Origin: Patescibacteria group bacterium | GTDB lineage: Bacteria; Patescibacteriota; Minisyncoccia; Minisyncoccales; PEYH01 | Direction of reading: 5' to 3' | Length of the DNA: 64,000 nucleotides | NCBI GenBank assembly: GCA_018900835.1 | Contig: JAHIFQ010000004.1 | Coordinates: 1 to 64,000 of the forward strand | Shown: positions 16,908-30,256 of the stretch, piece by piece | How positions within the stretch are numbered: the first letter of the stretch is position 1 | Layout: each line of letters opens with the position of its first letter | Position numbers and translations under genes: made by a program | The notes under the pieces: generated by a model | Database searches by the model: none | What the model was told of the DNA's origin: nothing | The model's input: only the letters and a program-made list of their open reading frames with translations

Positions 16908-19256
16908 ATGAAGTTAAAAAATTTCCTCATTATATCAAAACGAAAAATACTACTTTGGCTGGTTTTTGCTTTTACAATGATTTTTATCCCATTGCATCCC
17001 ATAAGAGCGCAGTGGGGTATTGAAATCCTTACCGCCCCATTTGTTCTGCTGGCAAAACTCGTGACGTTGTGTATTGTTGGGGTTCCGGTATCTTTTTGGT
17101 GCCTCGATATAGCTCAAATATTTCTGACTTGGGCTGCCAATCCTGCTCTAGTTGGCGGAGTTACCAATAATCCTTTTGTCCTGGCGGGCTGGGCAACGAT
17201 TAGGGATTTCAGCAATCTCTTTTTTATCCTGATTATCGTGGCAATCGGAATAGCGACTGCTTTGAGAGTAAAACAATATGAGGTAAGGAAAACCCTTCCT
17301 CGCCTGATTATTGTCGCTGTATTGATAAACTTTTCTCCTGTAATCTGCGGGGTCTTCATAGACGCTGCTAATATCATTGCTAATTTCTTTTTCACTGCAG
17401 GAGCCGGGGGATTCAGCGACGTCATTACTATTGCGCAAAGTTCAAAAGGTTGGTTGGTAAGAGAACTCTCCAGTATCTCCGGCGTCTGGGCGCAGATAAG
17501 AACAGGCGAACTTTTCTTCAAGGCAATAGCTGTGTTAGTTTTCAATTTATTCGGAACTTTTGTCTTATTCCTAATGGGCATACTTTTCATAGTCAGAAAT
17601 CTTGCTTTGTGGATTTTAGTAATCTTATCTCCTCTAGCATTCCTTTCTTCCATATTCCCCAAAAATCCTGTTACTAAAAAAGCCACTCCTTTTGGTATGT
17701 GGCGAGACCAATTCGTAAAATGGACTTTTGTTGGGGTTACTGGCTCATTCTTCTTATATCTAGCCCAATTGATGATGAGAATGGGAACAAAAACGCTTCT
17801 TAATAACAATCTGCCCGCAACACATGCGTCCGATGCTGGCGGGAATATAATAACCGGCTTAATGGTAATGGCTGTGCCTTTGGTTTTCCTTGGCATAGGA
17901 TATTTTGTTACTGTTTCCAGTTCAGCAATGGGAGCAGGCGCCATCACTAATTTTGGCAAAAAAGGCCTTGCCTGGGGCAAGAGCAAAGCTGGAGGTATGG
18001 CAATAAACAGATTGAGAAAAGATATTGTAGACCCTTATAAGAGAGCAGGACAAAAGGTGGGAGAAAGAATAGCAAACAAGGCGCCAGGGGAAAGAGCAGA
18101 ACGCTACAAGCAATCTCATGGCATTGCTAAGGTTGGTAAAACAATAGCAAGAGGAGCAATTCCTTATTCAATTAGAGAATGGGGTGCTGCAAAATTAAAA
18201 CCTGGTCTAGCTGAAAGAGGTGTTTCTAATGTCGAAAAAGCAAAAGATGAAGCTGGAAAACTAAAAACAAAAGAAGGACGTCGAGCTCAATACAATAAAG
18301 CAAAAAGGGAAAAGAATAGAGAAAAGCAACTTGGAGTTGTCGTGCAAGCAATAGAAAAAGGAGAATTGGATGGATATTCAGATGGAGAAATTCAATCTGC
18401 AATAAAAGACGCTGGACAAATTAATAAAAAATTAGCAGAAGATATAATACAAGCAACTCCTAATTTAGCGCAAGAGATTTATGATGATTATCATGCTGAT
18501 AATCCGAATATAATGACTGAATATAACAACTTAAACACACAATTAACAACTGCTAACGCTGCTGGGAATCAACCATTAGCCGAAAAATTAGAAAGACAAA
18601 TGGATAGAGTTAAACAACCAGCAGATAGTCGAGGGTTATGGATGTCGCCAGAAGACATACAGCACTATGGAACTTTTGAGGCGAAAACAGTACTCACAAC
18701 AAAAGCAAAAGATATTGGAAAGCTAAGAAAAAATTATGTAAAGACAAATAGATTTATGGAAATCGCCCAAGATGCCAGCCACCAAGGCAAAAATGCATTG
18801 AGTGGAAACCATCTATCAAAAATAGCAGAAGAGTACGGAACATCTGCGGTTGATTTGTATAACGATACTTCTGACAGGATAAATCCAACTGGTAGATGGA
18901 TGGCTGATATCGCGCCTGACCGTCCTCATCCTATAAAAAGATATTTAGACACTAATCCTGGGGCTATTGCAGCAGGATATAGAATGCCAACTACAGGAGG
19001 AGGTACAGGAGGAGGAGGAGGAGGTGGTGGGACAATTTTAACACCTTCCCCAACTACTCATGTGAAAACAACTAGTCAACCAAAGATGGACGAAAGACAG
19101 AGAGCAGAAATGGAAGAAGAGCGCAGGAGAAAGAGCAGGGAGACTGGTGATAAAGGCGACCGTGGCGGTGGCGGAGAAGAATCTGATCCAAATCGTCCAG
19201 GAGGTAGACCAGGATATGGAGGAGGAAGTGGTCGTCCCGGAGGTAGACCAGGGTAG
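16908..19256 (+). CDS. VirB6/TrbL-like polytopic membrane protein with long Gly/Pro/Arg-rich C-terminal tail
   Basis: About 6 TM helices in the first 330 aa, then a hydrophilic region ending in poly-Gly and GRPG repeats. The topology and tail resemble TrbL/VirB6. The GC content is higher than in flanking genes. Confidence 0.4.
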   Translation: MKLKNFLIISKRKILLWLVFAFTMIFIPLHPIRAQWGIEILTAPFVLLAKLVTLCIVGVPVSFWCLDIAQIFLTWAANPALVGGVTNNPFVLAGWATIRDFSNLFFILIIVAIGIATALRVKQYEVRKTLPRLIIVAVLINFSPVICGVFIDAANIIANFFFTAGAGGFSDVITIAQSSKGWLVRELSSISGVWAQIRTGELFFKAIAVLVFNLFGTFVLFLMGILFIVRNLALWILVILSPLAFLSSIFPKNPVTKKATPFGMWRDQFVKWTFVGVTGSFFLYLAQLMMRMGTKTLLNNNLPATHASDAGGNIITGLMVMAVPLVFLGIGYFVTVSSSAMGAGAITNFGKKGLAWGKSKAGGMAINRLRKDIVDPYKRAGQKVGERIANKAPGERAERYKQSHGIAKVGKTIARGAIPYSIREWGAAKLKPGLAERGVSNVEKAKDEAGKLKTKEGRRAQYNKAKREKNREKQLGVVVQAIEKGELDGYSDGEIQSAIKDAGQINKKLAEDIIQATPNLAQEIYDDYHADNPNIMTEYNNLNTQLTTANAAGNQPLAEKLERQMDRVKQPADSRGLWMSPEDIQHYGTFEAKTVLTTKAKDIGKLRKNYVKTNRFMEIAQDASHQGKNALSGNHLSKIAEEYGTSAVDLYNDTSDRINPTGRWMADIAPDRPHPIKRYLDTNPGAIAAGYRMPTTGGGTGGGGGGGGTILTPSPTTHVKTTSQPKMDERQRAEMEEERRRKSRETGDKGDRGGGGEESDPNRPGGRPGYGGGSGRPGGRPG

Positions 19257-19334
19257 TAGGTGAAGCGCATTGTAAAAATAAGAGAGGTCAGGGCTTGCCC
19301 TGACCTCTTGTGTCTCTAGTGGATTTCTCCGCTA

Positions 19335-20486
19335 TCAACGCTGTTCCAACAACTCTAGTATCTTCTGAATATCAGCCTTGAGTTGGCTGATCTCTTCGGG
19401 GGTTGTTTTATCTTGTGTTTTTCCAAACACGCCTTTCAGAATCTCCGAAAGACCTGGGACTGATTGAATCGTCAAGCTCGCTGCCAAAGGCGATTTTTCG
19501 ACCGCTTCAAGCGTTCTAACGAGCTTTCCAAGGTCTCCGAAGCGTTGAATCACTTCATAAACCTTTTCAAGGCGAGCAACTTCTCCATCCGCCTCAATTG
19601 ACGCCTTTTCTCGCGTCGCTTCAGCAGTTACGATAGTTGCTTCTTTGTCCATCTCAGCATTGAACTTCTTGAGCGTAGCAGCCCGATAATCAGCAGGTGG
19701 GTCAATGCTTATAACCCCCAAGCTGATAACCTTAATTCCATACTCATTTTCTATCTCTGGAATCGGACCGCCAAGAATAGAGAGCTCGTTGAAAATGTCC
19801 TTTCCGATGTCACTCGCCTTCTTGATGTGCTCGTCGTAGGTTTTTCCTGTGACCTTGTCGCGGACAGCGGCTCGCAAGGGCTGAATAGTCAACTCCAACC
19901 AATTCTGTGCCACGAATAAGGCCTTGTATGGGTTCACCACTCGGAGCTTGAGGATGAAGTGGAGCGATAGCGGAAGCTTATTCATGTCTTCCGCGCCTTC
20001 CACGCTGAAATGGTACTGGTCATCCTTAAGGATGATGTAATCCATCCACTCGCGGGGGTGATGTTGGATAGTCCCATCTGCCTTCACCCCTGTCCACTCA
20101 AAGGTGTATATGAACAGGTCTAAAATGGGCCAAAATCCATACCAGCGCAAACCGCCCAAGAAACGCTTTTTTTCTTGGTCCGGGCCAATACTGATAACAT
20201 TGTAGTCCGCATCAAGGCCATGTCCTTTCCACTGAATTAGCGCTTTCGCAACCTGATCGCCTTTGACAATGAACTTCACCGTGCCTTCGGGCATAAATGT
20301 GAAGAACTTGTTGCGCTGGGCGAGCACGAAGTAGACCAAAGCGAGTATCCCAGCGAGAATCGCTGCAACAACAAGAATAAACACCAAGGTCGGGACAGGT
20401 CTCACAAGAAACGAAATGAAAAGAGCCACTCCAACCACTGCCAACGCTATCCACAATACTGTTCTTTTACTTATCATATCTCTCAT
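19335..20486 (-). CDS. SPFH/band-7 (stomatin/HflC-like) membrane protein
   Basis: An N-terminal TM pair, then a band-7 core and a C-terminal coiled-coil (ATIVTAEATREKASIEADGEVARLEKVYEV). Its GC content is noticeably higher than the window average. Confidence 0.7.
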   Translation of the reverse strand: MRDMISKRTVLWIALAVVGVALFISFLVRPVPTLVFILVVAAILAGILALVYFVLAQRNKFFTFMPEGTVKFIVKGDQVAKALIQWKGHGLDADYNVISIGPDQEKKRFLGGLRWYGFWPILDLFIYTFEWTGVKADGTIQHHPREWMDYIILKDDQYHFSVEGAEDMNKLPLSLHFILKLRVVNPYKALFVAQNWLELTIQPLRAAVRDKVTGKTYDEHIKKASDIGKDIFNELSILGGPIPEIENEYGIKVISLGVISIDPPADYRAATLKKFNAEMDKEATIVTAEATREKASIEADGEVARLEKVYEVIQRFGDLGKLVRTLEAVEKSPLAASLTIQSVPGLSEILKGVFGKTQDKTTPEEISQLKADIQKILELLEQR

Positions 20487-20723
20487 CTCCTTGTATCTCT
20501 TTTTTTATTCTTTTGTGAAGGTACGACTCTACTATATGTAGAAACGGAGGATTCCAATGAATCTCCTTTGTTTCTTATGTCCATATTATACCAATAAATA
20601 CTTGCTCTGTCAACTTTTTTACAGGTTCCGATTCGTGTTCTTTGCTACCTGTTAATTTCTTTCTCTTAATTGCTGTGTTAAAATGGATTAAGATAAATTA
20701 GTATGATAAAATTATAGAACTAA

Positions 20724-21140
20724 ATGTTTATGGAAGAATTATCCCGAGACCAACTTTGGGCAATTTATAATACCCTGTCTGACACTCTAAAAGATGCGAT
20801 ATTTTCAGAAGATACTGCTGATGCTATTTTTAATATCTGTAAACTCTATGAAATAGATAAAAACTCGGAAGTGGCAAAAATAGTGGGCAGAATCCTGATG
20901 GGTCTTTTGCCTCCGGAATTCTTGAAAGACACGCTTCAAGAGGAAACAGGAATAAACGAAGACATTGCGAAGAAAACAACAATGGAGATAGAGCATTTTA
21001 TTTTAAATCCAGTGAAAAAAGAATTAGATGCTCTGTATCAAGAGGTTCAAGAAAAAAAAGAAAAGCCAGCAGGCGATATAAAAGAACAACCCTTGGAGGA
21101 ATTGGAGAAAGAAGATGATTATAGAGAACCAATACAATAA
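20724..21140 (+). CDS. Acidic hypothetical protein
   Basis: 138 aa, with no motifs recognised. Confidence 0.3.
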   Translation: MFMEELSRDQLWAIYNTLSDTLKDAIFSEDTADAIFNICKLYEIDKNSEVAKIVGRILMGLLPPEFLKDTLQEETGINEDIAKKTTMEIEHFILNPVKKELDALYQEVQEKKEKPAGDIKEQPLEELEKEDDYREPIQ

Positions 21141-21169
21141 TTTTTAGTTTTTAATTTTACATTTTACAT

Positions 21170-21595
21170 TTGCGAAGCATGGAGTATCCCTTACCACAAT
21201 TTTTATCAATAAAACCAAAGGTTGCCGGGCCGTTTAATCTGGCGCAATTACTTTGGATTGTTGGCGGAGCATTAGTATCAATAATTTTCTATTTCACTGC
21301 TCCTCTTATGACTTTTGTTTTAATCGGCATTCCGATTATGATTGTTGCTTTTATTTTGGCTTTTGGCAAAAGAAAGGGCTTCCCAATTCCAACAATAATA
21401 GTCCGTTCTTTTTCGTTCATTTTTGCCAGCAAAAGATATCTTTGGAAAAAAATTGACACTCCAGCGATTATGCTTCCAAAAGCAACCAAGGCAAAACCCG
21501 TAGAACCAAAAGACGACAAAGCAATTAGTTTAAAAATTTCCGGGCAGAGCCGTTTAAAAGAAATCGGACGATTAATTGAAATCCATTCCAAGTAA
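21170..21595 (+). CDS. Small 2-TM membrane protein (possible VirB3/PrgI-like)
   Basis: Two hydrophobic helices immediately upstream of the VirB4 genes. The assignment rests on position only. Confidence 0.3.
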   Translation: MRSMEYPLPQFLSIKPKVAGPFNLAQLLWIVGGALVSIIFYFTAPLMTFVLIGIPIMIVAFILAFGKRKGFPIPTIIVRSFSFIFASKRYLWKKIDTPAIMLPKATKAKPVEPKDDKAISLKISGQSRLKEIGRLIEIHSK

Positions 21596-21607
21596 ATTTC
21601 CTATATT

Positions 21608-22246
21608 ATGAATCTATCATCACAACAATTCCTGCCATTGGAACAGATAAAAGAGGGCATTATGATATTGAAAGACCATAGCTTAAGGGGCGTAATGATG
21701 GCATCCTCTTTAAACTTTGCTCTTAAAGCAACCGAAGAACAAGAAGCAATTATCTATCAATTCCAAACATTTTTAAATGCTTTGGATTTTTCCTGCCAAA
21801 TTTTTATTGCTTCAAGAAAAGTGAACATCACCGGCTATCTGGAAAAACTGAAAGAAGTTGAAGAAAAACATGAAAATGAATTAATGGCAACACAGACAAG
21901 GGAATACCGAAAATTTATTGAAAAAATAGTGGCAGGTGGCGCTATTATGAATAAAAATTTCTATATAATCGTGCCATTTTATCTTTCAGAAATGTATGGA
22001 AGCGCTACCAAGGGCGGACTGATATCTTTAAAAGCAATCCCAACATTAACCGAAGAAATGTTCCAAAGAGCAAAGTCCCAACTTTACCAAAGAATGGAAT
22101 TCTTGTCTTTGGGATTGAGAAGGTGCGGGGTTTGGAGCGTTGCATTACAAAGCGAAGAGCTGATAGAGCTTTTCTGGAGCATGTCTCATCCAAAAGAATC
22201 GTCTATCGGTTATTATCCAGAAATCCCGCCCGAATTAATACAATAG
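21608..22246 (+). CDS. VirB4/TrbE-family ATPase, N-terminal domain (ends at in-frame TAG 12 nt before the main VirB4 ORF)
   Basis: LPLEQIKEGIMILKDHSLRGVMMASSLNFAL..EEQEAIIYQFQTFLNAL matches the VirB4/TrbE N-terminal signature (dG.ll.kdGsl...). It is in the same reading frame as 22259..25858. Confidence 0.5.
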   Translation: MNLSSQQFLPLEQIKEGIMILKDHSLRGVMMASSLNFALKATEEQEAIIYQFQTFLNALDFSCQIFIASRKVNITGYLEKLKEVEEKHENELMATQTREYRKFIEKIVAGGAIMNKNFYIIVPFYLSEMYGSATKGGLISLKAIPTLTEEMFQRAKSQLYQRMEFLSLGLRRCGVWSVALQSEELIELFWSMSHPKESSIGYYPEIPPELIQ

Positions 22247-22258
22247 CGAATAAATAAA

Positions 22259-25200
22259 ATGAAACTTTCCTTTTTAGATGGATTATTAGGAAAAAAGACA
22301 GAATATGAGGCTGGTGCAGAACCGCAAGCAATGAACTTGCTTGATTTTATAGCTCCTCCAGCGATTACAATCGGGTCTGACTATTTCCAGATAGGCGAAA
22401 AATTCGCTAAATCATACTTTATTTTCTCTTACCCGAGATATTTGAGCACTGGGTGGTTGGCGCCAATTATAAACTTGGACATTCCATTGGACATTTCTAT
22501 TTTCTTTCATCCGATTGATACTGGGCTTATTCTGAAAAAATTAAGTAAAAAGGTTACTGAAGTTCAGTCGGAAATAATGGAAAAGGAAGAAAAGGGTTTA
22601 ATAAGGGACCCTATCCTTGAGACCGCTTACAAAGACATTGAGGTATTAAGAGACCGGCTCCAAACAGCGCAGGAAAGAATGTTCAGGGTTGGAATGTATC
22701 TGACCATATATGCTGATGACAAAAAGGAGTTGGAAAAAATAGAGGGCACTGTTCGCTCAATCCTTGAATCAAAATTGGTTTATGTAAAACCAGCCCTCTA
22801 CCAACAGGATAAGGCAATGATTTCAGCGTATCCCGCTGGTATAGACCGACTTCAAGTGCATACATCTATCAATACTAGTCCTCTCTCAACAATTTTCCCA
22901 TTTGTGTCTTTTGATTTGAGTTCAAACGAAGGAATCCTTTACGGGATAAACCAGCACAACAGCTCACTAGTGTTGTTTGACAGGTTTAGCTTGGAAAATG
23001 CAAACTCAGTCGTTTTCGGTAAGAGTGGCGGAGGCAAAAGCATTTTATCATCTGAACCAGTTCTGATAAGCGAGAACGGACAAACCAAGATTGAGAACAT
23101 CGGCAAAGTTGTAGAAAGAGCAATAGAAAAACACGGGTGCCATAAAATTGACGAGGAATTAGAGGGAGCAATAAATCCATATATCAAAGTTTGGAGTTTT
23201 GATAAAAATCTTAAAGGCAGTTGGTCAACGGTGACTGTTGCTGCAAGAAAAAAAGCTCCTGAAATATTTTATAAATTCAGAACCCGAAGCGGAAGAGAGG
23301 TGAGCACAACAGGAGACCACAATATGTTAATCCTTAAAAATGGACAAATAACCGCAGAAAAAAGCTCTGAAATTAATGAAGGAGAATTTATCCCGTTGTC
23401 CAGAAGGATTTCTGAAAACTCCTCTCCAGATAAATTCATAAACTTGCTTGAATTACTAAAAAATTCCCACTTGGTTTATGTTTTCAACGCTGAAAAAATC
23501 ATCAAAAAATATTATCATCAGATAAAAAATCTTGATAGTGGTTCCTCTTTAAAAAAATATCTCTATAAATACAAAGATGGTAGAAGGATTCCTATTAAAT
23601 ACTTCCTTGAAATTATTGATTCTTTAAAAATTTCAGAAGCCGAGCTTAATGATTTAAAAATTGTTTCCAAAAATGGAGATATTGCCAATGGCTTAAATAT
23701 AATCTTGCCTATTTCAAATAATCTGTTAAAAATAATCGGATTTATAGCATCAGAAGGAACAGTTGGCGAAAACTTTATAAATATCAGTAACCAAGACGAA
23801 GAATTCATCAAAGAGTGTATGGACTCTTTCAAGAATATTGGGGTTCCGTGCTATCAAGCAGACAAAGCTATTATTTGCGCAAGCCGTATTTTCACAGAAA
23901 TCATCAAGGCATTAGGCGGAAAACAGAAGTCCGGAGATAAGACGGTTTTGCCATTTATATTTAATGCTGAAAAAGAAAAAATTGCGCAATTCCTTTCCGC
24001 TTATTTTGAGGGAGACGGCGGGGTAGAACATGATAAAATATGCGCCACAACCAAATCAAAACAGCTATCTTCTGAAATTTCTTATCTGCTTTACTATTTT
24101 GGAATCATTGCCAGAATCCAAAAGAAAATTAAATGCGCCACCAATACAGAAGAAAAAAGAAAACAAACATATTGGCAAATTTCTGTATCAGGGAAGAATG
24201 ATTTAGAAAAGTTTGCCCAAGAAATTGGATTCATTTCTCACAGGAAAATAAACAAACTAAATAGCATTATTAAAGAAAATGGGAATACAAATGTTGATAT
24301 AATCCCGGGCTTAGCTCCGTTGTTTGAAGAAATCTACAACACCTGTCCTCCGCTCCTTATGGGCATGCAAACGGTCTCTGCTCTAAAGCGCGGGATATAT
24401 AATCCTTCACCAGATAATTTAAAAAACATAATAGAAAAAATAGAAAAACGGATTACTTATTTTAAAGATAGAGGAGAACAAATAAAAGTCCTGTCAGGAT
24501 TGCCAGAAATTCAGGAATTAATTGAATACGGAGAAAACATAGACAAAGAAACAGAAGACAATCTTGATTATAATTATAGTCCACAAGTCATAATGACCGA
24601 GCAAGCAAAGCAAACCGACCGACTTATTTGGCAGGAATACCAAGAAATTTTAAGAAATGGTATTCCAAAAATTGAAAATATTATCAAACGCCTAAAAAAT
24701 CTAGCAAACTCTGATTTATTTTTTGACGAAATCGTAAATATTGAAAAAATAGCCAACAAAGATGAACAATATGTTTATGATTTAACAGTGGACAACGAAG
24801 TATTTCTCTGCGGAAACGGTGGAATGTTTGTTCACAATTCGTACGCAATTAAGTTGGAGATTTTAAGGTCTTTGATGCTTGGAATTGAATCAATTATTAT
24901 TGACCCTGAAAACGAATATAGATTCCTTTCTGACGCAGTGGGCGGGAAGTTCTATAATATTTCTTTGGCATCAGAAAGCCATATAAACCCTTTTGACCTG
25001 CCAGAACCAGTTGATGATGAAGAGCCAAAAGATGTTTTGCGCTCCAACATTATCAACTTGGTTGGGCTTATGAGAATAATGCTTGGCGGGCTCACGCCTG
25101 AAGAGGACTCTGTTATTGACCAAGCTATTAACGAAACATATGCTGCCCGCGACATCACCGCAGACACAGACCCTGGTCTATGGAAAGAAAGGGTGCCATT

Positions 25201-25858
25201 GATGTCTGATTTAGAATCAGTGCTGGAAACAATGGAAGGCGCTGAATCGCTGGTTAAACGATTAAGAAAATTCACCAAAGGCGTTTACGCGGGATTCTTT
25301 AATTATCCAACAAATGTAGTAATGGATAATGCTTTGGTTGTTTTTGGCATTAAAAATCTTGAAACAGAATTAAGGCCATTGGCAATGTTTATTGTTATGC
25401 GCTACATTTGGAACGCCATTAAAGGTGATTTAAAAAAGAGAATCTTGGTGATTGACGAAGCGTGGTGGCTGATGCAAACAGAAGACAGCGCTTCTTTCCT
25501 TTATGGAATTGTAAAAAGAGGAAGAAAATATTGGCTTGGCACAACCACAATCACACAGGATGTGAACGATTTTATGAAATCAGACTATGGCCAGCCCATA
25601 ATCACAAATTCATCTTTGCAACTCTTGATGAAACAATCTCCAGCCACTATTCAGGTTGTAAAAGAGACCTTCAATCTTACTGACCAAGAAAAATACCTGC
25701 TTTTGGAAGCGCCTATTGGCGAAGGAATATTTTTTGCCGGAGAAAAACATGTTTCTATCAGGATTGTTGCTTCCTACACAGAGGACCAAATCATAACAAC
25801 CTCGCCTGAAGAAATGTCTAAAATAAAAAAGCTTAAAAAGATAAAAGAAAATGCCTGA
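22259..25858 (+). CDS. VirB4/TrbE/TraC-family conjugative ATPase containing a ~597-aa intein in the P-loop
   Basis: The exteins carry Walker A GKSGGGKS (aa 254-261), Walker B RILVIDEAWW and a VirB4 C-terminal region. The intein starts right after the P-loop and ends FVHN|S. Confidence 0.8.
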   Translation: MKLSFLDGLLGKKTEYEAGAEPQAMNLLDFIAPPAITIGSDYFQIGEKFAKSYFIFSYPRYLSTGWLAPIINLDIPLDISIFFHPIDTGLILKKLSKKVTEVQSEIMEKEEKGLIRDPILETAYKDIEVLRDRLQTAQERMFRVGMYLTIYADDKKELEKIEGTVRSILESKLVYVKPALYQQDKAMISAYPAGIDRLQVHTSINTSPLSTIFPFVSFDLSSNEGILYGINQHNSSLVLFDRFSLENANSVVFGKSGGGKSILSSEPVLISENGQTKIENIGKVVERAIEKHGCHKIDEELEGAINPYIKVWSFDKNLKGSWSTVTVAARKKAPEIFYKFRTRSGREVSTTGDHNMLILKNGQITAEKSSEINEGEFIPLSRRISENSSPDKFINLLELLKNSHLVYVFNAEKIIKKYYHQIKNLDSGSSLKKYLYKYKDGRRIPIKYFLEIIDSLKISEAELNDLKIVSKNGDIANGLNIILPISNNLLKIIGFIASEGTVGENFINISNQDEEFIKECMDSFKNIGVPCYQADKAIICASRIFTEIIKALGGKQKSGDKTVLPFIFNAEKEKIAQFLSAYFEGDGGVEHDKICATTKSKQLSSEISYLLYYFGIIARIQKKIKCATNTEEKRKQTYWQISVSGKNDLEKFAQEIGFISHRKINKLNSIIKENGNTNVDIIPGLAPLFEEIYNTCPPLLMGMQTVSALKRGIYNPSPDNLKNIIEKIEKRITYFKDRGEQIKVLSGLPEIQELIEYGENIDKETEDNLDYNYSPQVIMTEQAKQTDRLIWQEYQEILRNGIPKIENIIKRLKNLANSDLFFDEIVNIEKIANKDEQYVYDLTVDNEVFLCGNGGMFVHNSYAIKLEILRSLMLGIESIIIDPENEYRFLSDAVGGKFYNISLASESHINPFDLPEPVDDEEPKDVLRSNIINLVGLMRIMLGGLTPEEDSVIDQAINETYAARDITADTDPGLWKERVPLMSDLESVLETMEGAESLVKRLRKFTKGVYAGFFNYPTNVVMDNALVVFGIKNLETELRPLAMFIVMRYIWNAIKGDLKKRILVIDEAWWLMQTEDSASFLYGIVKRGRKYWLGTTTITQDVNDFMKSDYGQPIITNSSLQLLMKQSPATIQVVKETFNLTDQEKYLLLEAPIGEGIFFAGEKHVSIRIVASYTEDQIITTSPEEMSKIKKLKKIKENA
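23048..24838 (+). mobile_element. Intein with LAGLIDADG (dodecapeptide) homing-endonuclease domain inside VirB4
   Basis: Block A lies after GKSGGGKSIL (S-SEPVLISENG). The LAGLIDADG blocks are KIIGFIASEGTVGE and IAQFLSAYFEGDGGVE. The C-terminal splice junction is VHN followed by the +1 Ser. The rejoined extein reads GKSGGGKSIL-SYAIKLEIL. Confidence 0.7.
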
Positions 25859-26153
25859 AACATTGTCAGCAAGAGGAATTATGAGATTGATAATCGCTAT
25901 CATTCTTGATATCTTTGGTTTCCTTTGTTCAGCCATTTCCCTTCTCGGGCTACCAGGAATGTTTATAGGCGGAGCGCTTTCGCTTATTCCAGACGGCTTA
26001 GGATTCATTTTTATAGGCGGAATGAACAGAAAAAAGGATAGGGAATTCTACCTTTCTTTCGTGGCTGAAATTATTCCTGGATTGGGAGCTCTTCCTTTTT
26101 GGACAGCATATGTTCTGCTTGGGAAAGGATATACTCCATCTGACCCTAAATAA
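25851..26153 (+). CDS. Small membrane protein (3 TM), hypothetical
   Basis: Overlaps the VirB4 stop by 8 nt. It is Gly-rich and hydrophobic. Confidence 0.3.
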   Translation: MPETLSARGIMRLIIAIILDIFGFLCSAISLLGLPGMFIGGALSLIPDGLGFIFIGGMNRKKDREFYLSFVAEIIPGLGALPFWTAYVLLGKGYTPSDPK

Positions 26154-26157
26154 AAAA

Positions 26158-28722
26158 ATGACGAATAACACGAAAAAATTTATTCTGTTTATGGGGTCAA
26201 TCTTATTGGCTGTTTTTTTGTTAACAATAGTCCATTTTTCAAGAGTAAGCGCTGCTGATTTGGAAAACATATACCCAGATGTTCCTGGAGCAATAACGCC
26301 AACAACCACTGAAACGCCTCTGCCTGTATTATTAAAATATATTTATAATCTTTCTATTATCTTGGCCGGCTTTATAGCATTTGTAGTCATGGTTTGGGGA
26401 GGTGTGAAATATATTTTAGCTGGACCAAGGCCAGGAAAATTGGCAGACGCCAAGGAACAAATCACGCTCGGATTAGTAGGCATGATGCTGATTTTCGCTT
26501 CATATATGATAGTAAACACCATAAATCCTGACTTTACTAAATTAATAACAATTCTGCCCATTACTTTTACCGATACCTTTATCCCATCAAGCGATAATCC
26601 AAGTTCAATGGATGTCGGACTTTACGAGATTCCTATCGGCTCAATCATCACCTCTGAATTCGGAGCTTCCTCTTTTTTGGCAACCACTAGTCCAGATATT
26701 GACTACGCTAATACCGAATGGCCGCCTACAATCACAAGCACTAGCACCTATGATACTGATTTTCAGGGCGCTCTTTTCGGAGCGCGCCTAAGGCGAATAC
26801 ACGAAGTTGCCAGCACCACTGTGCCAGTGGCAAAAAAATTACACGATTTGAGCAACGGGCTCCATGATTTAATAAATAAATGCACTTGCATGTTCGGATG
26901 TCATGGGAATATCCTATTAATATGCGCCGTATCTACAGATTGCGGATGCGACACAGGATATTTGTGCAGTGATGACACAAAAGACAAAATGGAAAAAAGA
27001 ATAGGGGAAATCGAATCCTTAAAAGACGCTTTTAAGGCCTTCTTAAATCCCAATTCCCTTGTAGAGGATTATTATAACAATAATCAATCAGATATTGACG
27101 GCTTGGATGATGATGAAATAAAAGACCTTATCCAGATGATGATAGAGGTAGAGAATAAGGGCGGTTATAGTCCGAAAAACGACCCGCATGAAAGAGATAT
27201 TGGGAGAAATCTGCTTGAAATGACTGCTTTTATAAATGAAATGAATAAGATGAAAAGAATGCTCAACCCCTATGACCAGGATGTGGGCTATTTAAGCTTG
27301 CTTACATTCGCCGAAGCCACCACGCTGGAAGCCAATATGGATGTAAGCTCCACTATTTATAATTATTTCGCCGCCCTTCCAGCTGGGCTGGAAAAAATTG
27401 ACGAAAAAAACGACCCTGCCACTTTTTATTCAGCAGCCACTCTTCCTTTTCCATATGGGATGCCAGACGATAGACCGTATAATCAAGATGCTCCGGAACC
27501 CGATTTTCTGCCTTATTATCCAGGAGAAAGAAAAATGTCCTATCAAAAAAACATTGCTTTCGCAGCCGTACCATTCGTTCCCCCAAATGTGCAATTTGAT
27601 TTTGACACCCCTCCAAGCACGGGCGGAACCTGTAATTATATATTGGAAATCCCTATCGGCAGAGCATTAGATGAGGCAATCAATCTCGCCCAAGCAATCA
27701 ATAAAGAATTATTTAATATATTCGTCAAAGGACATATAGAAATAATCGGCGCCAATATGCTGATAAAAGCAGCAGAAAAATTCATTGACCTGAAATGCGT
27801 CGATGCCTGCATCAAGCCAACATGTGTCGGCGAACCACCTCTCGCATTATGCGTTCCACCATTCCTCTGTATGCCGACTCTCGAAACAATATTCTTGAAT
27901 GCTCAAAGTGATATTGCCATATTCCTTATTGAATTAACAACTATCCCGGGTATGAACATTGCCATAGATGATATTGAAACTTCATTCAAAAAATTGGACT
28001 CCCAGGAACCGATTTTGATAGACCGCGTGTGTAAAGACGAAAAAGGAAATTGTCGAAAAAGGAACGGAACAATTAATAATAGTAAAGTAGAAGAAAGGGA
28101 ATATACTTTAAAAGAAAAATTAATGGAGGTTCAACTTCTGCTTAATAGGTCTAGGGAGCTCGTCGGCCAGGACAAAGAAAAAAGCGTTTACGAAATCTTG
28201 TTAGAGGATTACATTGCCCTCGGTTTTGGCAAATATTATGAAGATTTGTTAAAATATATAAGGAGGATTGACGCTATTGAAAGAACCGACCTTCAGGACT
28301 GCCACATAATATCCGGAACCATCAAGAAAATAGAGGGAGAGAATTACAGCACATCATTGATGAATTGCCGAGATGCCAAGCTCCTGGACTTGATAGATTT
28401 CTATAATGAAGACATTTGCAGTCCTAATCCTTATCTTGACGCCAATTATTATTTAAAACCCGAAGCCCGCAAGTTAAGGCCTATCAGTTGTTATTGCTAT
28501 GACGAGGATGCTGACAAAAAATACTATAATAAAAAGGATTTCCCTGAACTCTACCAAAGTATAAGCATTATTGTTCCCAGTTTTATGGCTGATATAGAAG
28601 ATTTAGACACTGATGCCCTGCATGATTTGGCGCAACAATGGCAAAATGCCCGTATAGACCTCAATCATTTCTCCGGATTCGGCAATAATTATTTTTGCTG
28701 TATTAAAAATTATGAAGAATAA
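26158..28722 (+). CDS. Large Cys-rich surface protein with pilin-like (VirB2/TrbC-like) N-terminal 2-TM module
   Basis: The start is placed at MTNNTKK, because the ORF track start at 26110 overlaps the previous gene. The N-terminal ~130 aa are homologous to the next ORF (YIYN..II.AG.IA......GG..Y..AG.P....DA.EQI..GLVG.....SYMI.N.INPD). Roughly 700 aa of Cys-rich extracellular domain follow. Confidence 0.45.
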   Translation: MTNNTKKFILFMGSILLAVFLLTIVHFSRVSAADLENIYPDVPGAITPTTTETPLPVLLKYIYNLSIILAGFIAFVVMVWGGVKYILAGPRPGKLADAKEQITLGLVGMMLIFASYMIVNTINPDFTKLITILPITFTDTFIPSSDNPSSMDVGLYEIPIGSIITSEFGASSFLATTSPDIDYANTEWPPTITSTSTYDTDFQGALFGARLRRIHEVASTTVPVAKKLHDLSNGLHDLINKCTCMFGCHGNILLICAVSTDCGCDTGYLCSDDTKDKMEKRIGEIESLKDAFKAFLNPNSLVEDYYNNNQSDIDGLDDDEIKDLIQMMIEVENKGGYSPKNDPHERDIGRNLLEMTAFINEMNKMKRMLNPYDQDVGYLSLLTFAEATTLEANMDVSSTIYNYFAALPAGLEKIDEKNDPATFYSAATLPFPYGMPDDRPYNQDAPEPDFLPYYPGERKMSYQKNIAFAAVPFVPPNVQFDFDTPPSTGGTCNYILEIPIGRALDEAINLAQAINKELFNIFVKGHIEIIGANMLIKAAEKFIDLKCVDACIKPTCVGEPPLALCVPPFLCMPTLETIFLNAQSDIAIFLIELTTIPGMNIAIDDIETSFKKLDSQEPILIDRVCKDEKGNCRKRNGTINNSKVEEREYTLKEKLMEVQLLLNRSRELVGQDKEKSVYEILLEDYIALGFGKYYEDLLKYIRRIDAIERTDLQDCHIISGTIKKIEGENYSTSLMNCRDAKLLDLIDFYNEDICSPNPYLDANYYLKPEARKLRPISCYCYDEDADKKYYNKKDFPELYQSISIIVPSFMADIEDLDTDALHDLAQQWQNARIDLNHFSGFGNNYFCCIKNYEE

Positions 28723-30256
28723 AGAGATGAAAAAAATCATATTAATAATAAGTGTTTTGGTTGTCCTCTCTTGCGCAGGACTAATATACGCCCTTGAAGT
28801 AGAATATCCAACTGTAGGCGGTATGCAGGGCCCACAGGATACTGGAGTCAAATTAACAACCTATATCCGTTATATCTATAACTTTGCCATTATAAGCGGA
28901 GGACTGATTGCTTTATTGGCTTTAATTTACGGCGGATTCAGATTTTTGACTTCAGCTGGCAATCCAAGCGCTATCACAGACGCAAGAGAACAAATCTTAG
29001 CAGGACTTTTGGGATTGGTTGTTATTTTGGGTTCATATATAATACTAAACGAACTGAATCCTGACTTAGTGTCATTGAGAATCCCGGGGATTGACGCAAA
29101 CAGAAAGGGAATAATTTTATATAGTCAGGCCGGTTGCGGTGGATTGAGCGATGATGACGCTTCTATGCCCGAGGTTGCTGATATCCCTGACGGCCTGCTT
29201 TACAAAGCAATGAACAGCAGCGGATCAATAACAGATCAAGACGGAAACAGTTTTCTTCCTGTGTCTCTGTTTTCTTTTCAGGATTCAAAAGATTTAATAA
29301 TACAATTTTATTCCAATGACAAATGCGAAGGAAACACGGTTCCAGCGCCACAACTTAATTCTAACCAATGTTTAGATATCAGCGCTTCTAATCTTAAGTG
29401 CATAAAGTTCATTTGGTACAAGCCCGGGGTCTGGGTCTTCAACCAATTAGAAAATGGAGCTAATGTGCCTGACCCCGGTGACCTGCCTCTTGGATGGGAA
29501 GAAGGAAAAGAATATATAGTATTCCAGAGCAATCAAGAATCTTTACCAAACAACTTCCACGACCAAATTGTGGCTCTGGTAATCGTGCCCAGTAAAGAGT
29601 CCGAGGAAGGATTGGGGAAAAACTACGGCGTAATCGCCCACAATATCCCCGGACCCATGCTCAAAGAAAAAGGTTGGGCCCATATTTATCTGCCGGGAAA
29701 CGGTTCTGCTTCGGGTTGCCGATTATCTGGAGAGATAACTAAGTGCGGACCATTTGAAAATAATTCTTCTGATATTTCTTCGTTAACAATATTCAATATG
29801 CCCAAAGAAGGAACAGCCACTAAGGCAATAAAGGTTTGCCGAAATGACAGATGCGAGCCGCAGAGAGTCGGAGATGACTTCTTTGATGTTTATAAAGAAT
29901 ATTTTCCGGGAAGCGGACTTCAAGAAAGAACCAGTGTTTTCGGAGGAGCGGTGTCTCCCTATAACCTCGGAAGCGGAATAGTGTATGGTAAAAATCTTAA
30001 TGGTGAAAATTGGGATACTGGCAATCCTATTGTTCTTGGCAGGAATCAGGCAGACGGGGTTTCAGCTATTGAAATAGATGAAGGAGCCCGTTATCTGACG
30101 CTCCTTTACGACGAATATCTTGATTTTTCCAATATTAATACTAACACTTCGGCTGACGCAGCCATTATCAATATTTCTATGCCATCTTTGAGAACAATTC
30201 AAATGGATGGTAGAGTTGGGACAATTATAGTTATCCGAGTGGGGACAGAAGATTAA
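28712..30256 (+). CDS. Second surface protein with the same pilin-like N-terminal module, different C-terminal domain
   Basis: N-terminal motifs YIYNFAIISGGLIALLALIYGGFRFLTSAGNPSAITDAREQILAGLLGLVVILGSYIILNELNPD. Its start overlaps the upstream gene by 11 nt. Confidence 0.45.
   Translation: MKNKEMKKIILIISVLVVLSCAGLIYALEVEYPTVGGMQGPQDTGVKLTTYIRYIYNFAIISGGLIALLALIYGGFRFLTSAGNPSAITDAREQILAGLLGLVVILGSYIILNELNPDLVSLRIPGIDANRKGIILYSQAGCGGLSDDDASMPEVADIPDGLLYKAMNSSGSITDQDGNSFLPVSLFSFQDSKDLIIQFYSNDKCEGNTVPAPQLNSNQCLDISASNLKCIKFIWYKPGVWVFNQLENGANVPDPGDLPLGWEEGKEYIVFQSNQESLPNNFHDQIVALVIVPSKESEEGLGKNYGVIAHNIPGPMLKEKGWAHIYLPGNGSASGCRLSGEITKCGPFENNSSDISSLTIFNMPKEGTATKAIKVCRNDRCEPQRVGDDFFDVYKEYFPGSGLQERTSVFGGAVSPYNLGSGIVYGKNLNGENWDTGNPIVLGRNQADGVSAIEIDEGARYLTLLYDEYLDFSNINTNTSADAAIINISMPSLRTIQMDGRVGTIIVIRVGTED

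What the first reader, a model, noticed from the sequence alone, without database searches (positions are those of the whole stretch)
16908..30256. T4SS/conjugation-like membrane machinery block: TrbL/VirB6-like, SPFH protein, VirB3-like?, split VirB4 with intein, and two giant pilin-headed surface proteins
Consecutive genes encode: (i) a polytopic membrane protein with a Gly/Pro/Arg-rich tail (TrbL/VirB6-like), (ii) an SPFH scaffold on the opposite strand, (iii) small membrane proteins, (iv) a VirB4-family ATPase, and (v) two very large Cys-rich extracellular proteins sharing a pilin-like 2-TM N-terminal module. There is no relaxase, coupling protein (VirD4) or VirB10/B9 here, so this is not a canonical conjugative transfer region. 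It may be a minimal VirB4-powered surface-filament or DNA-uptake system of the kind proposed for episymbiotic ultra-small bacteria. GC content of 16.9-20.5 kb is visibly higher than the flanks, hinting at acquisition.
Basis: partly seen in the sequence, partly recalled or inferred. Interest (0 to 1): 0.6.

Follow-up and report, generated by a model that had tools for sequence, protein, structure and literature searches.

The report
Patescibacterial type IV secretion gene cluster
This is the chromosomal type IV secretion gene cluster typical of ultra-small Patescibacteria (Parcubacteria/Paceibacteria branch), a published kind of system whose function is still unknown; this copy has a self-splicing intein in its motor ATPase and pilin-like anchors fused to large surface domains.

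Summary
Window 16908-30256 encodes, in order:
- a VirB6/TrbL-like channel protein
- an SPFH protein on the opposite strand
- a conserved soluble 138-aa protein
- PrgI/VirB3
- a TrsD-like protein that corresponds to the N-terminal segment of VirB4
- a VirB4 ATPase interrupted in its Walker A loop by a 600-aa LAGLIDADG intein
- a 100-aa membrane protein
- two proteins (854 and 514 aa) with a VirB2-type pilin head and a large ectodomain

No relaxase, coupling protein or VirB8-11 was found in the 64 kb.

The block lies between ksgA and jag-yidC-rnpA-dnaA, next to the replication origin. The same order recurs in dozens of Nealsonbacteria, Staskawiczbacteria and Parcubacteria genomes, so it is inherited vertically. 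The raised GC comes from a Gly/Pro/Arg tail and from the SPFH gene alone, not from acquisition of the block.

This is the Patescibacteria-clade T4SS described in 2023-2025: related to Gram-positive MPF-FATA systems, lacking a relaxase, carrying pilin arrays, origin-proximal. It is essential in one Saccharibacterium, and its function is unknown.

The points specific to this locus are the P-loop intein, which recurs in other Patescibacterial VirB4 genes, and the long pilin-ectodomain fusions, one of which has beta-gamma-crystallin folds.

Verdict: real, correctly read, a new member of a known kind.

The parts
14885..15940 (-). LysM + M23 peptidase. Candidate cell-wall hydrolase partner (VirB1 analogue). 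Membership of the system is inferred only.
   Evidence: Pfam Peptidase_M23 5.9e-23 and LysM 3.4e-19. A homologue is present in 26 of 83 related loci. In this clade it sits on the minus strand just upstream of ksgA. In 8 more distant loci, some of them named Moraniibacteriota, it is the plus-strand gene listed directly before VirB6. The literature notes M23/LysM hydrolases as possible VirB1 substitutes.
16908..19256 (+). Extended VirB6/TrbL-like polytopic membrane protein, 782 aa. Transmembrane domain about residues 1-370, hydrophilic C-terminal domain, Gly/Pro/Arg tail at 691-782.
19335..20486 (-). SPFH/Band-7 membrane scaffold protein, 383 aa, transcribed on its own.
   Evidence: Pfam Band_7 3.5e-9. 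N-terminal hydrophobic stretch at residues 4-59. A 12/12 consensus promoter at 20613..20585 and a hairpin terminator at 19308..19283. Orthologues occupy the same slot, always on the minus strand, in 8 related loci. GC3 of 0.54 is an outlier.
20724..21140 (+). Conserved soluble 138-aa protein of unknown family: a roughly 105-aa domain, an acidic linker and a C-terminal D-x-Y-R-E motif. First gene of the likely operon.
   Evidence: No Pfam, NCBIfam or PDB match. Homologues lie between VirB6 and PrgI in 27 related loci. Alignment A2 shows the conserved N-domain and the terminal YRE motif.
21179..21595 (+). PrgI/VirB3-like small membrane protein (138 aa from ATG 21179; the mechanical ORF starts at TTG 21170).
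   Evidence: PF12666 PrgI 4.1e-7, 30.9 bits against a cut-off of 27. Hydrophobic stretch at residues 21-69. Matches positions 22-116 of the Mycoplasma VirB3-VirB4 fusion profile. Present in 77/83 loci.
21608..22246 (+). TrsD/TraC-like protein, 212 aa. It corresponds to the N-terminal segment of full-length VirB4, encoded as a separate gene.
   Evidence: NCBIfam: VirB4_plasma positions 104-233 (5.7e-8), CD1110 VirB4 positions 5-123 (1.4e-5), TrsD 2e-3. PF26593 TraC-like on orthologues. Present in 81/83 loci. 81% identical to the L001 orthologue. Not a paralogue of the N-domain retained in VirB4.
22259..25858 (+). VirB4 ATPase precursor, 1199 aa. Exteins total 599 aa (residues 1-260 and 861-1199).
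   Evidence: NCBIfam conju_CD1110 7.1e-104, Pfam P-loop_TraG 7e-20. The exteins match the T. pseudethanolicus VirB4 structure 4AG5 at 7.8e-44 and TrwK at 1.1e-5. 83% identical to the intein-free orthologue in L001.
23039..24838 (+). Class-1 intein, 600 aa, with a LAGLIDADG homing-endonuclease domain, inserted in Walker A between GKSGGGK and S.
   Evidence: Pfam Intein_splicing 1.6e-17 and LAGLIDADG_3 7.2e-20. TIGR intein N- and C-terminal models. Ser1, TGDH block B, terminal His-Asn and Ser+1 are present, and removal restores GKSGGGKS. Alignment with L001 VirB4 breaks exactly at 260|861 with no residues lost. Both LAGLIDADG motifs are conserved, and the intein lacks about 64 aa relative to its closest relative.
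25851..26153 (+). Small hydrophobic 100-aa membrane protein of unknown family.
   Evidence: Hydrophobic segments at about residues 4-56, no family hit. It overlaps the VirB4 stop by 8 nt. Weak homologues were found in 8 related loci; in 6 of them the ORF lies directly after VirB4, and in L018 and L019 it lies upstream of VirB6. NCBI and Logan gene calls also include it.
26158..28722 (+). Pilin-headed surface protein 1, 854 aa: signal/TM helix, VirB2-type helical hairpin, then a roughly 700-aa ectodomain with conserved Cys and no recognisable fold family.
   Evidence: PF18895 T4SS_pilin 1.1e-7, 32.2 bits against a cut-off of 26.6. 31/32 family members carry PF18895, and 12 Cys columns are invariant with 10 more nearly invariant. 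No PDB or Pfam match for the ectodomain. NCBI names orthologues 'pilin'.
28712..30256 (+). Pilin-headed surface protein 2, 514 aa: signal/TM helix, VirB2-type hairpin (residues 48-115), then a beta-rich ectodomain with beta-gamma-crystallin-like Greek-key domains.

Best explanation
SHOWN. The block is the chromosomal, origin-proximal, vertically inherited type IV secretion gene cluster of a Patescibacterium of the Paceibacteria/Parcubacteria branch. Its closest relatives are labelled Nealsonbacteria and Staskawiczbacteria. It belongs to the Patescibacteria-clade T4SS, which derives from monoderm MPF-FATA conjugation machinery.

Its parts are:
- an extended VirB6-like channel/platform protein
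- PrgI/VirB3
- VirB4 encoded in two genes, a TrsD-like N-segment plus the ATPase
- two VirB2-type pilin-headed proteins with large ectodomains
- clade-specific accessories: an SPFH scaffold, a soluble 138-aa protein and a 100-aa membrane protein

There is no relaxase or coupling protein nearby. The VirB4 gene carries a 600-aa LAGLIDADG intein in the Walker A loop. All splicing residues are intact.

INFERRED.
- The seven tightly packed genes from 20724 to 30256 form one operon.
- The VirB4 precursor must splice itself to rebuild GKSGGGKS before it can bind ATP.
- TrsD, VirB4 and PrgI assemble on VirB6 at the membrane, possibly corralled by the SPFH scaffold.
- By analogy with Gram-negative systems, where VirB4 dislocates VirB2 pilin from the membrane onto a VirB6 platform, the machine extracts the pilin hairpins. 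It then polymerises or displays them, so their variable ectodomains (beta-gamma-crystallin-like or Cys-rich) project from the cell surface and bind the host cell.
- The assembled channel then moves an unidentified cargo (protein, nucleic acid or other host-derived material) between epibiont and host. It does not perform relaxase-dependent conjugation.
For: Component identities.

Collinear tiling of PrgI, TrsD, N-extein and C-extein on the fused Mycoplasma VirB3-VirB4 profile (22-116, 104-233, 291-528, 529-893) and on the CD1110 profile (5-123, 181-428, 430-733).

Synteny: the order ksgA, VirB6, (SPFH), g138, PrgI, TrsD, VirB4, (g100), 1-4 pilin-headed ORFs, jag, yidC, rnpA, dnaA recurs across 83 related loci. 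Counts are VirB4 83, TrsD 81, PrgI 77, VirB6 60, pilin head 54, dnaA 36. Many loci are cut by contig ends.

Purifying selection: against L001, VirB4 is 83% and TrsD 81% identical, compared with PNPase 66%, ComM 64% and KsgA 60%. Surface parts diverge faster, at 43-51%.

Operon packing: gaps of 38, 12, 12, -8, 4 and -11 nt.

Intein: intact junctions and an exact excision point.

No relaxase, T4CP or VirB8-11 among the window's larger ORFs.

Literature: the same repertoire, the lack of a relaxase and the dnaA/ksgA/rnpA neighbourhood are described for Paceibacteria. The T4SS and its pilin array are essential in S. epibionticum.
Against: - Function is unproven anywhere in the phylum; a 2024 perspective calls it 'completely unknown'.
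- Only 64 kb was searched, so a distant VirD4 or relaxase cannot be excluded. The paper finds VirD4 homologues far from virB4 in many Patescibacteria.
- No VirB8-like or VirB1 protein was recognised.
- The 782-aa protein itself has no direct Pfam hit, so the VirB6 assignment rests on homologues, a profile search and fold.
- Ectodomains of 400-700 aa on every subunit may be hard to pack in a VirB2-type helical filament (own reasoning, not tested), and the window has no short pilin. Polymerisation is therefore doubtful, and display or tip roles are equally possible.
- Splicing competence is inferred from motifs only.
Confidence: 0.88

Rival explanations
1. It is a DNA-uptake (competence-type) T4SS, like H. 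pylori ComB or the archaeal Ced/Ted importers. It would import host or environmental DNA as a nucleotide source or for recombination.
For: - The system has no relaxase or T4CP yet keeps the pilin, VirB4 and VirB6 core.
- The N-extein weakly matches the CedB DNA-import ATPase model, 5e-5.
- The pilin hairpin resembles the A. pernix conjugation/import pilin.
- comM, ruvA, ruvB and ruvC lie in the same 64 kb, and comM is syntenic in 16 loci.
- DNA uptake is proposed as a candidate role in the literature.
Against: - The CedB match is far weaker than the match to conjugative VirB4 models, 6.5e-44.
- comM and the ruv genes are housekeeping genes near the origin, and no functional link was shown.
- In S. 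epibionticum, comEC competence is dispensable while the T4SS is essential. This neither proves nor excludes DNA import by the T4SS.
Confidence: 0.15
2. It is a conjugative element, or the remnant of one (ICE or plasmid-derived), recently acquired by horizontal transfer as the raised GC suggested.
For: - VirB4, PrgI and TrsD are homologous to the MPF-FATA conjugation genes of Firmicutes and Mycoplasma ICEs.
- GC is locally raised at 17-20 kb.
- The SPFH gene has anomalous GC3.
Against: - No integrase, relaxase, T4CP or flanking repeats or tRNA at the borders.
- The block lies between the same housekeeping genes in dozens of species-level genomes.
- VirB4 is more conserved than the flanking housekeeping genes.
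- GC3 of all block genes except SPFH is in the genome's range, and the VirB6 tail's GC lies at codon positions 1 and 2.
Confidence: 0.03
3. The pilin-headed proteins are ordinary membrane-anchored surface adhesins that use the two-helix head only as an anchor. They would be inserted by Sec/YidC and would not be substrates of the VirB4/VirB6 machine. Co-location would reflect co-regulation only.
For: - The ectodomains are large, at 400-700 aa.
- The window has no short major pilin, and across the clade only 7 of 92 pilin-headed ORFs are under 200 aa.
- Gram-positive T4SSs normally use surface adhesins rather than pili.
- yidC is adjacent.
Against: - The head is specifically a T4SS_pilin/VirB2-family module. 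31 of 32 family members hit PF18895, and one also hits TrbC/VirB2.
- The genes follow virB4 in the same operon, with overlapping stops and starts, in 54 of 83 loci.
- The pilin array is essential together with the T4SS in S. epibionticum.
Confidence: 0.2
4. The VirB4 gene is an inactivated relic, disrupted by the intein, so the cluster is non-functional in this organism.
For: - The insertion splits the Walker A loop, so the unspliced protein cannot bind ATP.
- The intein lacks about 64 aa that its closest relative has.
Against: - The reading frame is open through all 1199 codons.
- Ser1, block B TxxH, His-Asn and Ser+1 are intact.
- The exteins are 94% identical to an intein-bearing relative and 83% to an intein-free one.
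- At least 16 of 20 inspected relatives of the intein sit at the same VirB4 site in diverse lineages, as expected for a functional homing intein.
- The missing segment is also absent from other VirB4 inteins.
Confidence: 0.04

Closest known systems
Patescibacteria-clade T4SS (Southlakia epibionticum SEML1_0006-0019, Wang et al. 2023; survey by Quinonero-Coronel et al. 2025, PMC12102498)
   Same: - MPF-FATA-like VirB4, with TrsD, PrgI/VirB3 and VirB6
- an array of VirB2-like pilin genes beside virB4
- no relaxase or T4CP nearby
- a chromosomal site next to dnaA, dnaN, rnpA and ksgA, as reported for Paceibacteria
   Different: - This locus has an intein in VirB4.
- It has an SPFH gene inside the cluster.
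- Its 'pilins' are 514-854-aa fusion proteins.
The main text of the 2025 survey mentions neither inteins nor SPFH and treats VirB2 as a small protein. The Saccharibacterial cluster has six structurally conserved pilins and was tested genetically; this one was not.
Gram-positive MPF-FATA conjugation systems (CTn2 CD1110 VirB4; pCF10 PrgH/I/J; pGO1 TrsC/D/E) and Mycoplasma ICE Mbov_0395-0397
   Same: - Best VirB4 model is CD1110, 7e-104.
- PrgI and TrsD families are matched.
- The pilin-like Mbov_0395 family is weakly matched.
- PrgI, TrsD and VirB4 are collinear with the fused Mycoplasma VirB3-VirB4.
   Different: Those systems are on mobile elements with a relaxase and T4CP, and they transfer DNA. 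Here both are absent from the window and the cluster is a fixed chromosomal locus. Gram-positive systems generally lack VirB2 pilins.
R388 Trw / Agrobacterium VirB T4SS (TrwI/VirB6, TrwK/VirB4, VirB2 pilus)
   Same: - VirB6 fold and profile match to TrwI.
- VirB4 ATPase domain matches TrwK.
- VirB2-family pilin module is present.
   Different: There is no outer-membrane core (VirB7/9/10), VirB5, VirB8 or VirB11. VirB6 carries a 400-aa hydrophilic extension. The pilin carries a large C-terminal ectodomain instead of being about 70-120 aa long.
P-loop inteins of ATPases (DnaB, MCM, RFC; VirB4 inteins listed by Novikova et al. 2016, PMC4760082)
   Same: A class-1 intein with a LAGLIDADG endonuclease, inserted in the Walker A loop of a P-loop ATPase. 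VirB4 is already listed as an intein host, with 5 cases in Firmicutes and Proteobacteria.
   Different: The host here is the chromosomal Patescibacterial VirB4. My search shows a family of allelic inteins at this exact site in diverse Patescibacteria-like VirB4 proteins. I did not find that described in the papers I read.
Microbial beta-gamma-crystallin domain proteins (Protein S, spherulin 3a, clostrillin, flavollin)
   Different: Sequence identity is only 6-16%. The Ca-binding motif was not examined. The domain is fused to a T4SS pilin head, an architecture I did not see described.

Membership tests
Patescibacteria-clade T4SS | VirB4 of the MPF-FATA-related type whose nearest relatives are Patescibacterial | tested here: met
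   The best model is CD1110 VirB4, 7e-104. The 80 best genome hits (55-75% identity) are overwhelmingly MAGs labelled Patescibacteria, Parcubacteria or member candidate phyla; a few carry other or generic labels. No formal phylogeny was built.
Patescibacteria-clade T4SS | TrsD-like and PrgI/VirB3-like genes adjacent to virB4 | tested here: met
   PrgI matches PF12666 above its gathering score, and TrsD matches NCBIfam TrsD and the VirB4 N-segment. Both lie immediately upstream of virB4.
Patescibacteria-clade T4SS | VirB2-like pilin genes in an array near virB4 | tested here: met
   Two tandem PF18895-headed genes lie directly downstream. Related loci carry 1-4 such genes.
Patescibacteria-clade T4SS | No relaxase or coupling protein associated with the cluster | tested here: met
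   No such family was found among the window's larger ORFs. The rest of the genome was not available.
Patescibacteria-clade T4SS | Origin-proximal chromosomal context (dnaA, dnaN, rnpA, ksgA) as reported for Paceibacteria | tested here: met
   ksgA lies directly upstream, and jag-yidC-rnpA-dnaA-dnaN lie directly downstream. This agrees.
Conjugative T4SS (MPF module of a mobile element) | Relaxase and type IV coupling protein (VirD4/TcpA) present, on a mobile element | tested here: not met
   None in 64 kb, no integrase, and a fixed syntenic chromosomal position in dozens of genomes. The whole genome could not be tested.
VirB6/TrbL | Polytopic membrane protein with 5 or more helices and sequence membership of the TrbL/VirB6 families | tested here: inconclusive
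   The protein itself has no Pfam hit. 12/55 homologues hit PF04610, and the family profile hits TrwI at E=1.3e-3. Homology is supported transitively, not directly.
VirB6/TrbL | VirB6 fold | tested here: met
VirB2 / T4SS_pilin | Signal sequence plus two-helix hydrophobic hairpin matching the pilin family model | tested here: met
   PF18895 scores 32.2 bits (cut-off 26.6) for the 854-aa protein. It scores 25.6 bits, just under the cut-off, for the 514-aa protein, whose head is homologous to the first at E=4e-22. AF2 predicts a hairpin at residues 48-115.
VirB2 / T4SS_pilin | Small protein (about 70-150 aa) that polymerises into a conjugative pilus | tested here: not met
   The proteins are 854 and 514 aa with large ectodomains. 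The clade median is 429 aa. Polymerisation cannot be tested with these tools.
Class-1 intein with LAGLIDADG homing endonuclease | N-terminal Ser/Cys, block B TxxH, C-terminal His-Asn, +1 Ser/Thr/Cys, and two LAGLIDADG motifs | tested here: met
   Ser1, TGDH, His-Asn|Ser, and the motifs IIGFIASEG and FLSAYFEGDGG. Pfam and TIGR intein models and LAGLIDADG_3 also match.
Class-1 intein with LAGLIDADG homing endonuclease | Precise excision restores a contiguous host protein | tested here: met
   The alignment with intein-free L001 VirB4 breaks at 260|861 with no gap or overlap, and restores GKSGGGKSYAIKLE.
Class-1 intein with LAGLIDADG homing endonuclease | Splicing and homing activity | not testable with these tools
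   This needs expression and splicing assays, plus endonuclease assays on the intein-free allele.
SPFH/Band 7 | Membrane anchor plus SPFH domain | tested here: met
   PF01145 at 3.5e-9, 37.4 bits against a cut-off of 23.6. N-terminal hydrophobic stretch at residues 4-59.
Beta-gamma-crystallin superfamily (ectodomain of the 514-aa protein) | Paired Greek-key fold; in microbial members, an N/D-N/D-x-x-S/T-S calcium motif | tested here: inconclusive

The most novel reading that the evidence does not exclude
In Paceibacteria the VirB2-type hairpin may work as an export-and-assembly handle. The VirB4/VirB6 machine would pull pilin-headed fusion proteins out of the membrane and display or polymerise them. 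Their large, fast-evolving ectodomains (beta-gamma-crystallin-like, or a Cys-rich domain of no known fold) would be the host-recognition adhesins that surveys report as missing from Patescibacterial T4SSs, and would set host range. A secondary, less likely reading is that the Walker-A intein makes production of active VirB4 conditional on splicing, acting as a post-translational switch.
Probability: 0.3. Interest if true: 0.6.

Novelty: new member of a known kind. Interest (0 to 1): 0.3.

Why it matters
The Patescibacterial T4SS is essential in the only species where it was tested, and its cargo and mechanism are unknown. This locus does not change what is known about the system, but it gives a cleanly dissected Paceibacterial example:
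- The VirB3, TrsD and VirB4 genes tile a fused VirB3-VirB4 profile, which shows that TrsD is the detached N-segment of VirB4.
- 'Pilins' in this branch are mostly long fusion proteins, with a predicted beta-gamma-crystallin or a conserved Cys-rich ectodomain. These are concrete candidates for host-binding determinants.
- An SPFH scaffold gene recurs in a fixed slot in the cluster.
- A family of allelic inteins occupies the VirB4 P-loop.

These points are useful for annotation and for designing experiments. They are not a surprise to specialists.

Tried and rejected
Searches that found nothing useful:
- Direct PDB sequence search with the 782-aa protein gave only low-complexity matches to the Gly-rich tail.
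- Profiles of the 138-aa family, TrsD, PrgI and the 854-aa pilin-headed family found nothing significant in the PDB. VirB3/TrwM in particular was not recovered.
- No VirB8-like, VirB1 (lytic transglycosylase), VirB11, VirD4 or relaxase family was found in any window ORF scanned.
- A jackhmmer search with the pilin head found no short pilin anywhere in the window.
- The AFDB50 fold library was unavailable.
- Exact-sequence look-ups of P0144 and of TrsD failed. The VirB4 look-up succeeded and located the same gene in GCA_018898995.1.

Hypotheses rejected:
- TrsD as a duplicate of the N-domain kept in VirB4. hhalign probability was 0.4%, and the two tile different parts of the VirB4 profiles.
- Horizontal acquisition of the block, on synteny and codon-position GC.
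- The intein as unique to this genome. None of the 83 related loci has it, but the search of 1.8 billion cluster representatives found many VirB4 proteins with an intein at the same site.

Full report
**1. What is in the sequence**

Window 16908-30256 holds nine ORFs. Pfam and NCBIfam identify six of them directly:
- an SPFH/Band_7 protein on the minus strand (19335-20486, E=3.5e-9)
- a PrgI/VirB3-family protein (21170-21595; PF12666, 30.9 bits, above the gathering score)
- a 212-aa protein that matches the N-terminal part of VirB4 models and the TrsD family (21608-22246)
- a 1199-aa VirB4 ATPase (22259-25858; CD1110-type VirB4, 7e-104) that also matches intein-splicing and LAGLIDADG models

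The two pilin heads are 34% identical over 129 residues, E=4e-22. That alignment, the 4-nt gap to the previous gene, and NCBI's own gene call all place the real start of the first pilin gene at 26158, giving 854 aa.

The 138-aa ORF (20724-21140) has no hydrophobic segment and is not a membrane protein. The 100-aa ORF (25851-26153) is hydrophobic.

**2. The VirB6 claim**

The 782-aa protein has no direct family hit. Three indirect lines support the assignment:
- 123 homologues were found, many with precomputed TrbL-type annotations. In a re-scan, 12 of 55 hit PF04610 TrbL/VirB6.
- A profile of the family has TrwI, the VirB6 of plasmid R388, as its top PDB hit at E=1.3e-3.

The 400-residue hydrophilic C-terminal half makes it an 'extended VirB6' in the sense of the 2025 FEMS review.

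**3. The 'split VirB4' and the intein**

The gene products tile VirB4 profiles without overlap.

| Profile | PrgI | TrsD-like protein | N-extein | C-extein |
|---|---|---|---|---|
| CD1110 VirB4 (752 positions) | - | 5-123 | 181-428 | 430-733 |
| Mycoplasma fused VirB3-VirB4 (894 positions) | 22-116 | 104-233 | 291-528 | 529-893 |

The gene order PrgI, TrsD, VirB4 is therefore collinear with a single fused protein. TrsD is the detached N-segment of VirB4, not a duplicate of the domain that VirB4 keeps (hhalign probability 0.4%).

The fission is ancient and stable. TrsD is present in 81 of 83 related loci and is 81% identical to its orthologue in L001.

The intein is residues 261-860 (nt 23039-24838).
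- It has Ser1, a TGDH block B, two LAGLIDADG motifs, and a terminal His-Asn followed by Ser+1.
- Removing it restores the Walker A motif GKSGGGKS.
- The alignment with the intein-free orthologue in L001 breaks exactly at 260|861 with nothing lost.

None of the 83 related loci carries the intein. A search of 1.8 billion cluster representatives found 3167 relatives of it. Of the 20 I inspected, 16 are VirB4 proteins with the intein at the same GxxGxGK|S site, in divergent exteins.

The closest of these, P0177, has 94% identical exteins and an 80% identical intein. The window's intein lacks about 64 residues that P0177 has, in a segment that other VirB4 inteins also lack.

VirB4 was already listed as an intein host, and P-loops as a preferred insertion site (PMC4760082).

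**4. Context and conservation**

The block is flanked by ksgA/rsmA upstream and by jag, yidC, rnpA, dnaA and dnaN downstream, so it lies next to the replication origin.

I fetched three metagenomic contigs through VirB6 homologues and 80 species-representative genomes through VirB4. I then labelled their ORFs with phmmer against the window's proteins.

The order ksgA, VirB6, (SPFH on the minus strand), 138-aa protein, PrgI, TrsD, VirB4, (small membrane protein), one to four pilin-headed ORFs, jag, yidC, rnpA, dnaA recurs throughout. The genomes are labelled Nealsonbacteria, Staskawiczbacteria, Parcubacteria and Paceibacterota. Many loci are truncated by contig ends, so the counts are lower bounds.

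| Component | Loci with a hit (of 83) |
|---|---|
| VirB4 | 83 |
| TrsD | 81 |
| PrgI | 77 |
| VirB6 | 60 |
| Pilin head | 54 |
| dnaA | 36 |
| 138-aa protein | 27 |
| SPFH | 8 |

Identity to the orthologues in L001:

| Protein | % identity |
|---|---|
| VirB4 | 83 |
| TrsD | 81 |
| PNPase | 66 |
| ComM | 64 |
| KsgA | 60 |
| Pilin-headed proteins | 48-51 |
| VirB6 | 46 |
| 100-aa protein | 43 |

This pattern fits a strongly constrained motor with fast-evolving surface parts.

No relaxase, coupling protein, VirB8-11 or integrase is encoded in the 64 kb.

**5. The GC argument**

GC is indeed higher at 17-18 kb (0.43) and 19-20 kb (0.49) than the window mean of 0.37. Two local causes account for most of it:
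- The VirB6 tail is GC-rich only at codon positions 1 and 2 (0.61 and 0.69, with GC3 0.25), because it is rich in Gly, Pro and Arg.
- The SPFH gene is the only real outlier, with GC3 of 0.54 against 0.22-0.42 elsewhere.

The VirB6 transmembrane segment is also slightly above the mean (GC 0.42), but its GC3 of 0.40 lies within the genome's range.

SPFH also has its own perfect extended promoter and a strong terminator. Its orthologues have GC3 of about 0.35-0.6 regardless of their genome's GC. The block as a whole is therefore not a recent acquisition. The SPFH gene may have its own history or its own codon bias.

**6. The pilin-headed proteins**

The AF2 model of the 514-aa protein (pLDDT 79) has three parts: an N-terminal helix, a helical hairpin at residues 48-115, and a confident beta-rich region at 130-514.
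- Foldseek's only significant hit is gamma-crystallin, E=7e-4.

The 854-aa family (32 sequences) has the pilin head in 31 members. It has 12 invariant and 10 nearly invariant Cys, and its roughly 700-aa ectodomain has no recognisable domain or solved relative.

In the 83 related loci I found 92 pilin-headed ORFs, with a median length of 429 aa and a maximum of 1809. Only 7 are under 200 aa. The window has no short pilin.

**7. Comparison with what is known**

The cluster matches the Patescibacteria-clade T4SS described by Quinonero-Coronel et al. 2025:
- a VirB4 related to monoderm MPF-FATA systems
- abundant TrsD and PrgI next to virB4
- VirB6
- arrays of VirB2-like pilins
- almost no relaxases
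- proximity to dnaA, dnaN, rnpA and ksgA in Paceibacteria

Wang et al. 2023 showed that the T4SS and its pilin array are essential in Southlakia epibionticum and lack a recognisable coupling protein and relaxase. Later reviews call the function unknown and mention effector delivery or DNA or nucleotide uptake as possibilities.

The main text of the 2025 survey does not mention inteins or SPFH. It treats VirB2 as small and reports that no adhesins were detected. NCBI already annotates orthologues of the 854-aa protein as 'pilin', and this exact VirB4 gene is in GCA_018898995.1.

**8. Most likely mechanism (inferred)**

- The seven tightly packed genes from 20724 to 30256 (gaps of 38 to -11 nt) form an operon. 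VirB6 follows ksgA, and SPFH is transcribed separately.
- VirB4 must splice to rebuild its P-loop.
- TrsD, VirB4 and PrgI dock on VirB6.
- By analogy with the R388 and Agrobacterium models, VirB4 extracts the pilin hairpins from the membrane. The hairpins are assembled or displayed so that their ectodomains face outward and contact the host.
- The channel then moves an unknown cargo.

Whether the large fusions can polymerise is doubtful on steric grounds. This is my own reasoning and was not tested. Tip, minor-subunit or anchored-display roles are equally possible.

Rival readings:

| Reading | Confidence |
|---|---|
| Plain membrane-anchored adhesins, independent of the machine | 0.2 |
| DNA-uptake system | 0.15 |
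| Intein-killed relic | 0.04 |
| ICE remnant | 0.03 |

**9. Verdict**

The finding is real and was read correctly. It is a typical Paceibacterial member of a published system rather than a new kind. The intein, the SPFH slot, the TrsD tiling and the ectodomain folds are useful details with modest novelty. Interest is 0.3.

Noticed in passing
window 19335-20486 (-), promoter 20613..20585, terminator 19308..19283: The SPFH gene is a compositional outlier, with GC 0.48 and GC3 0.54 against 0.22-0.42 for every other gene measured. It has a 12/12 consensus extended -10 promoter and a strong hairpin terminator. Its orthologues keep GC3 of about 0.35-0.6 whatever the GC of their genome. This suggests gene-specific codon bias (possibly high expression) or cassette-like exchange at a fixed slot.
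   Followed up: partly
window 6170-8854 (+) and 8808-9176 (+): An 894-aa protein has a Lys/Glu-rich, coiled-coil-like region, one TM segment and an ectodomain, and it ends in what looks like the start of an Amidase_2 domain (IDTIVIHSS...). The overlapping 122-aa ORF carries the rest of that domain (PF01510, 1.6e-26, profile positions 33-130). This looks like one gene for a membrane-anchored peptidoglycan amidase split by a frameshift or a sequencing error. The L001 orthologue (898 aa) appears to lack the amidase part.
   Followed up: partly
window 9600-13200: A low-GC stretch of about 3.7 kb (GC 0.25-0.34) lies between the dksA-like gene and comM. It carries a DUF3800 gene, a Gp49/HigB-like toxin gene (11661-12029, minus strand) and two unknown ORFs. 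In L001 the dksA-like gene is followed directly by comM, so this looks like an inserted accessory island.
   Followed up: partly
window 35276-36335; 50761-51378: Toxin-antitoxin or defence-type genes are scattered in the origin region. A nucleotidyltransferase (Polbeta) and HEPN pair sits just after dnaN, and an AbiEii-family nucleotidyltransferase toxin sits further on.
   Followed up: no
window 41754-43055 (-): A T2SSE-family (PilB/PilT/GspE-type) secretion ATPase, E=1.6e-114, lies next to ruvB. It is a likely component of the type IV pilus or competence machinery that Patescibacteria also depend on. It is not part of the T4SS block.
   Followed up: no
window 20724-21140 and alignment A2: The conserved 138-aa T4SS-associated protein ends in a strongly conserved D-x-Y-R-E-(P/x)-(I/V)-E motif after a variable acidic or Pro-rich linker. 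In more distant relatives the linker expands to 300-500 aa. This could be a docking peptide.
   Followed up: partly
loci L049, L050, L053, L054, L057, L059, L062, L064: In 8 more distant relatives, some of them named Moraniibacteriota, the M23-family peptidase gene is on the same strand as VirB6 and is listed directly before it. In the window it sits on the opposite strand, across ksgA. This strengthens the idea that it is the cell-wall hydrolase partner of the system.
   Followed up: partly
window 24400-24560 (within the intein): The window's intein lacks a segment of about 64 aa between the endonuclease domain and the C-terminal splicing block. Its 80%-identical relative P0177 has that segment, as do P0179 and P0182. 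The flanking residues have also diverged, which may be early decay of an accessory domain.
   Followed up: partly
window 39871-40494 (-): A 207-aa protein with a lamin-tail domain (LTD, 6e-12) lies between the yebC-like and ruvB genes.
   Followed up: no
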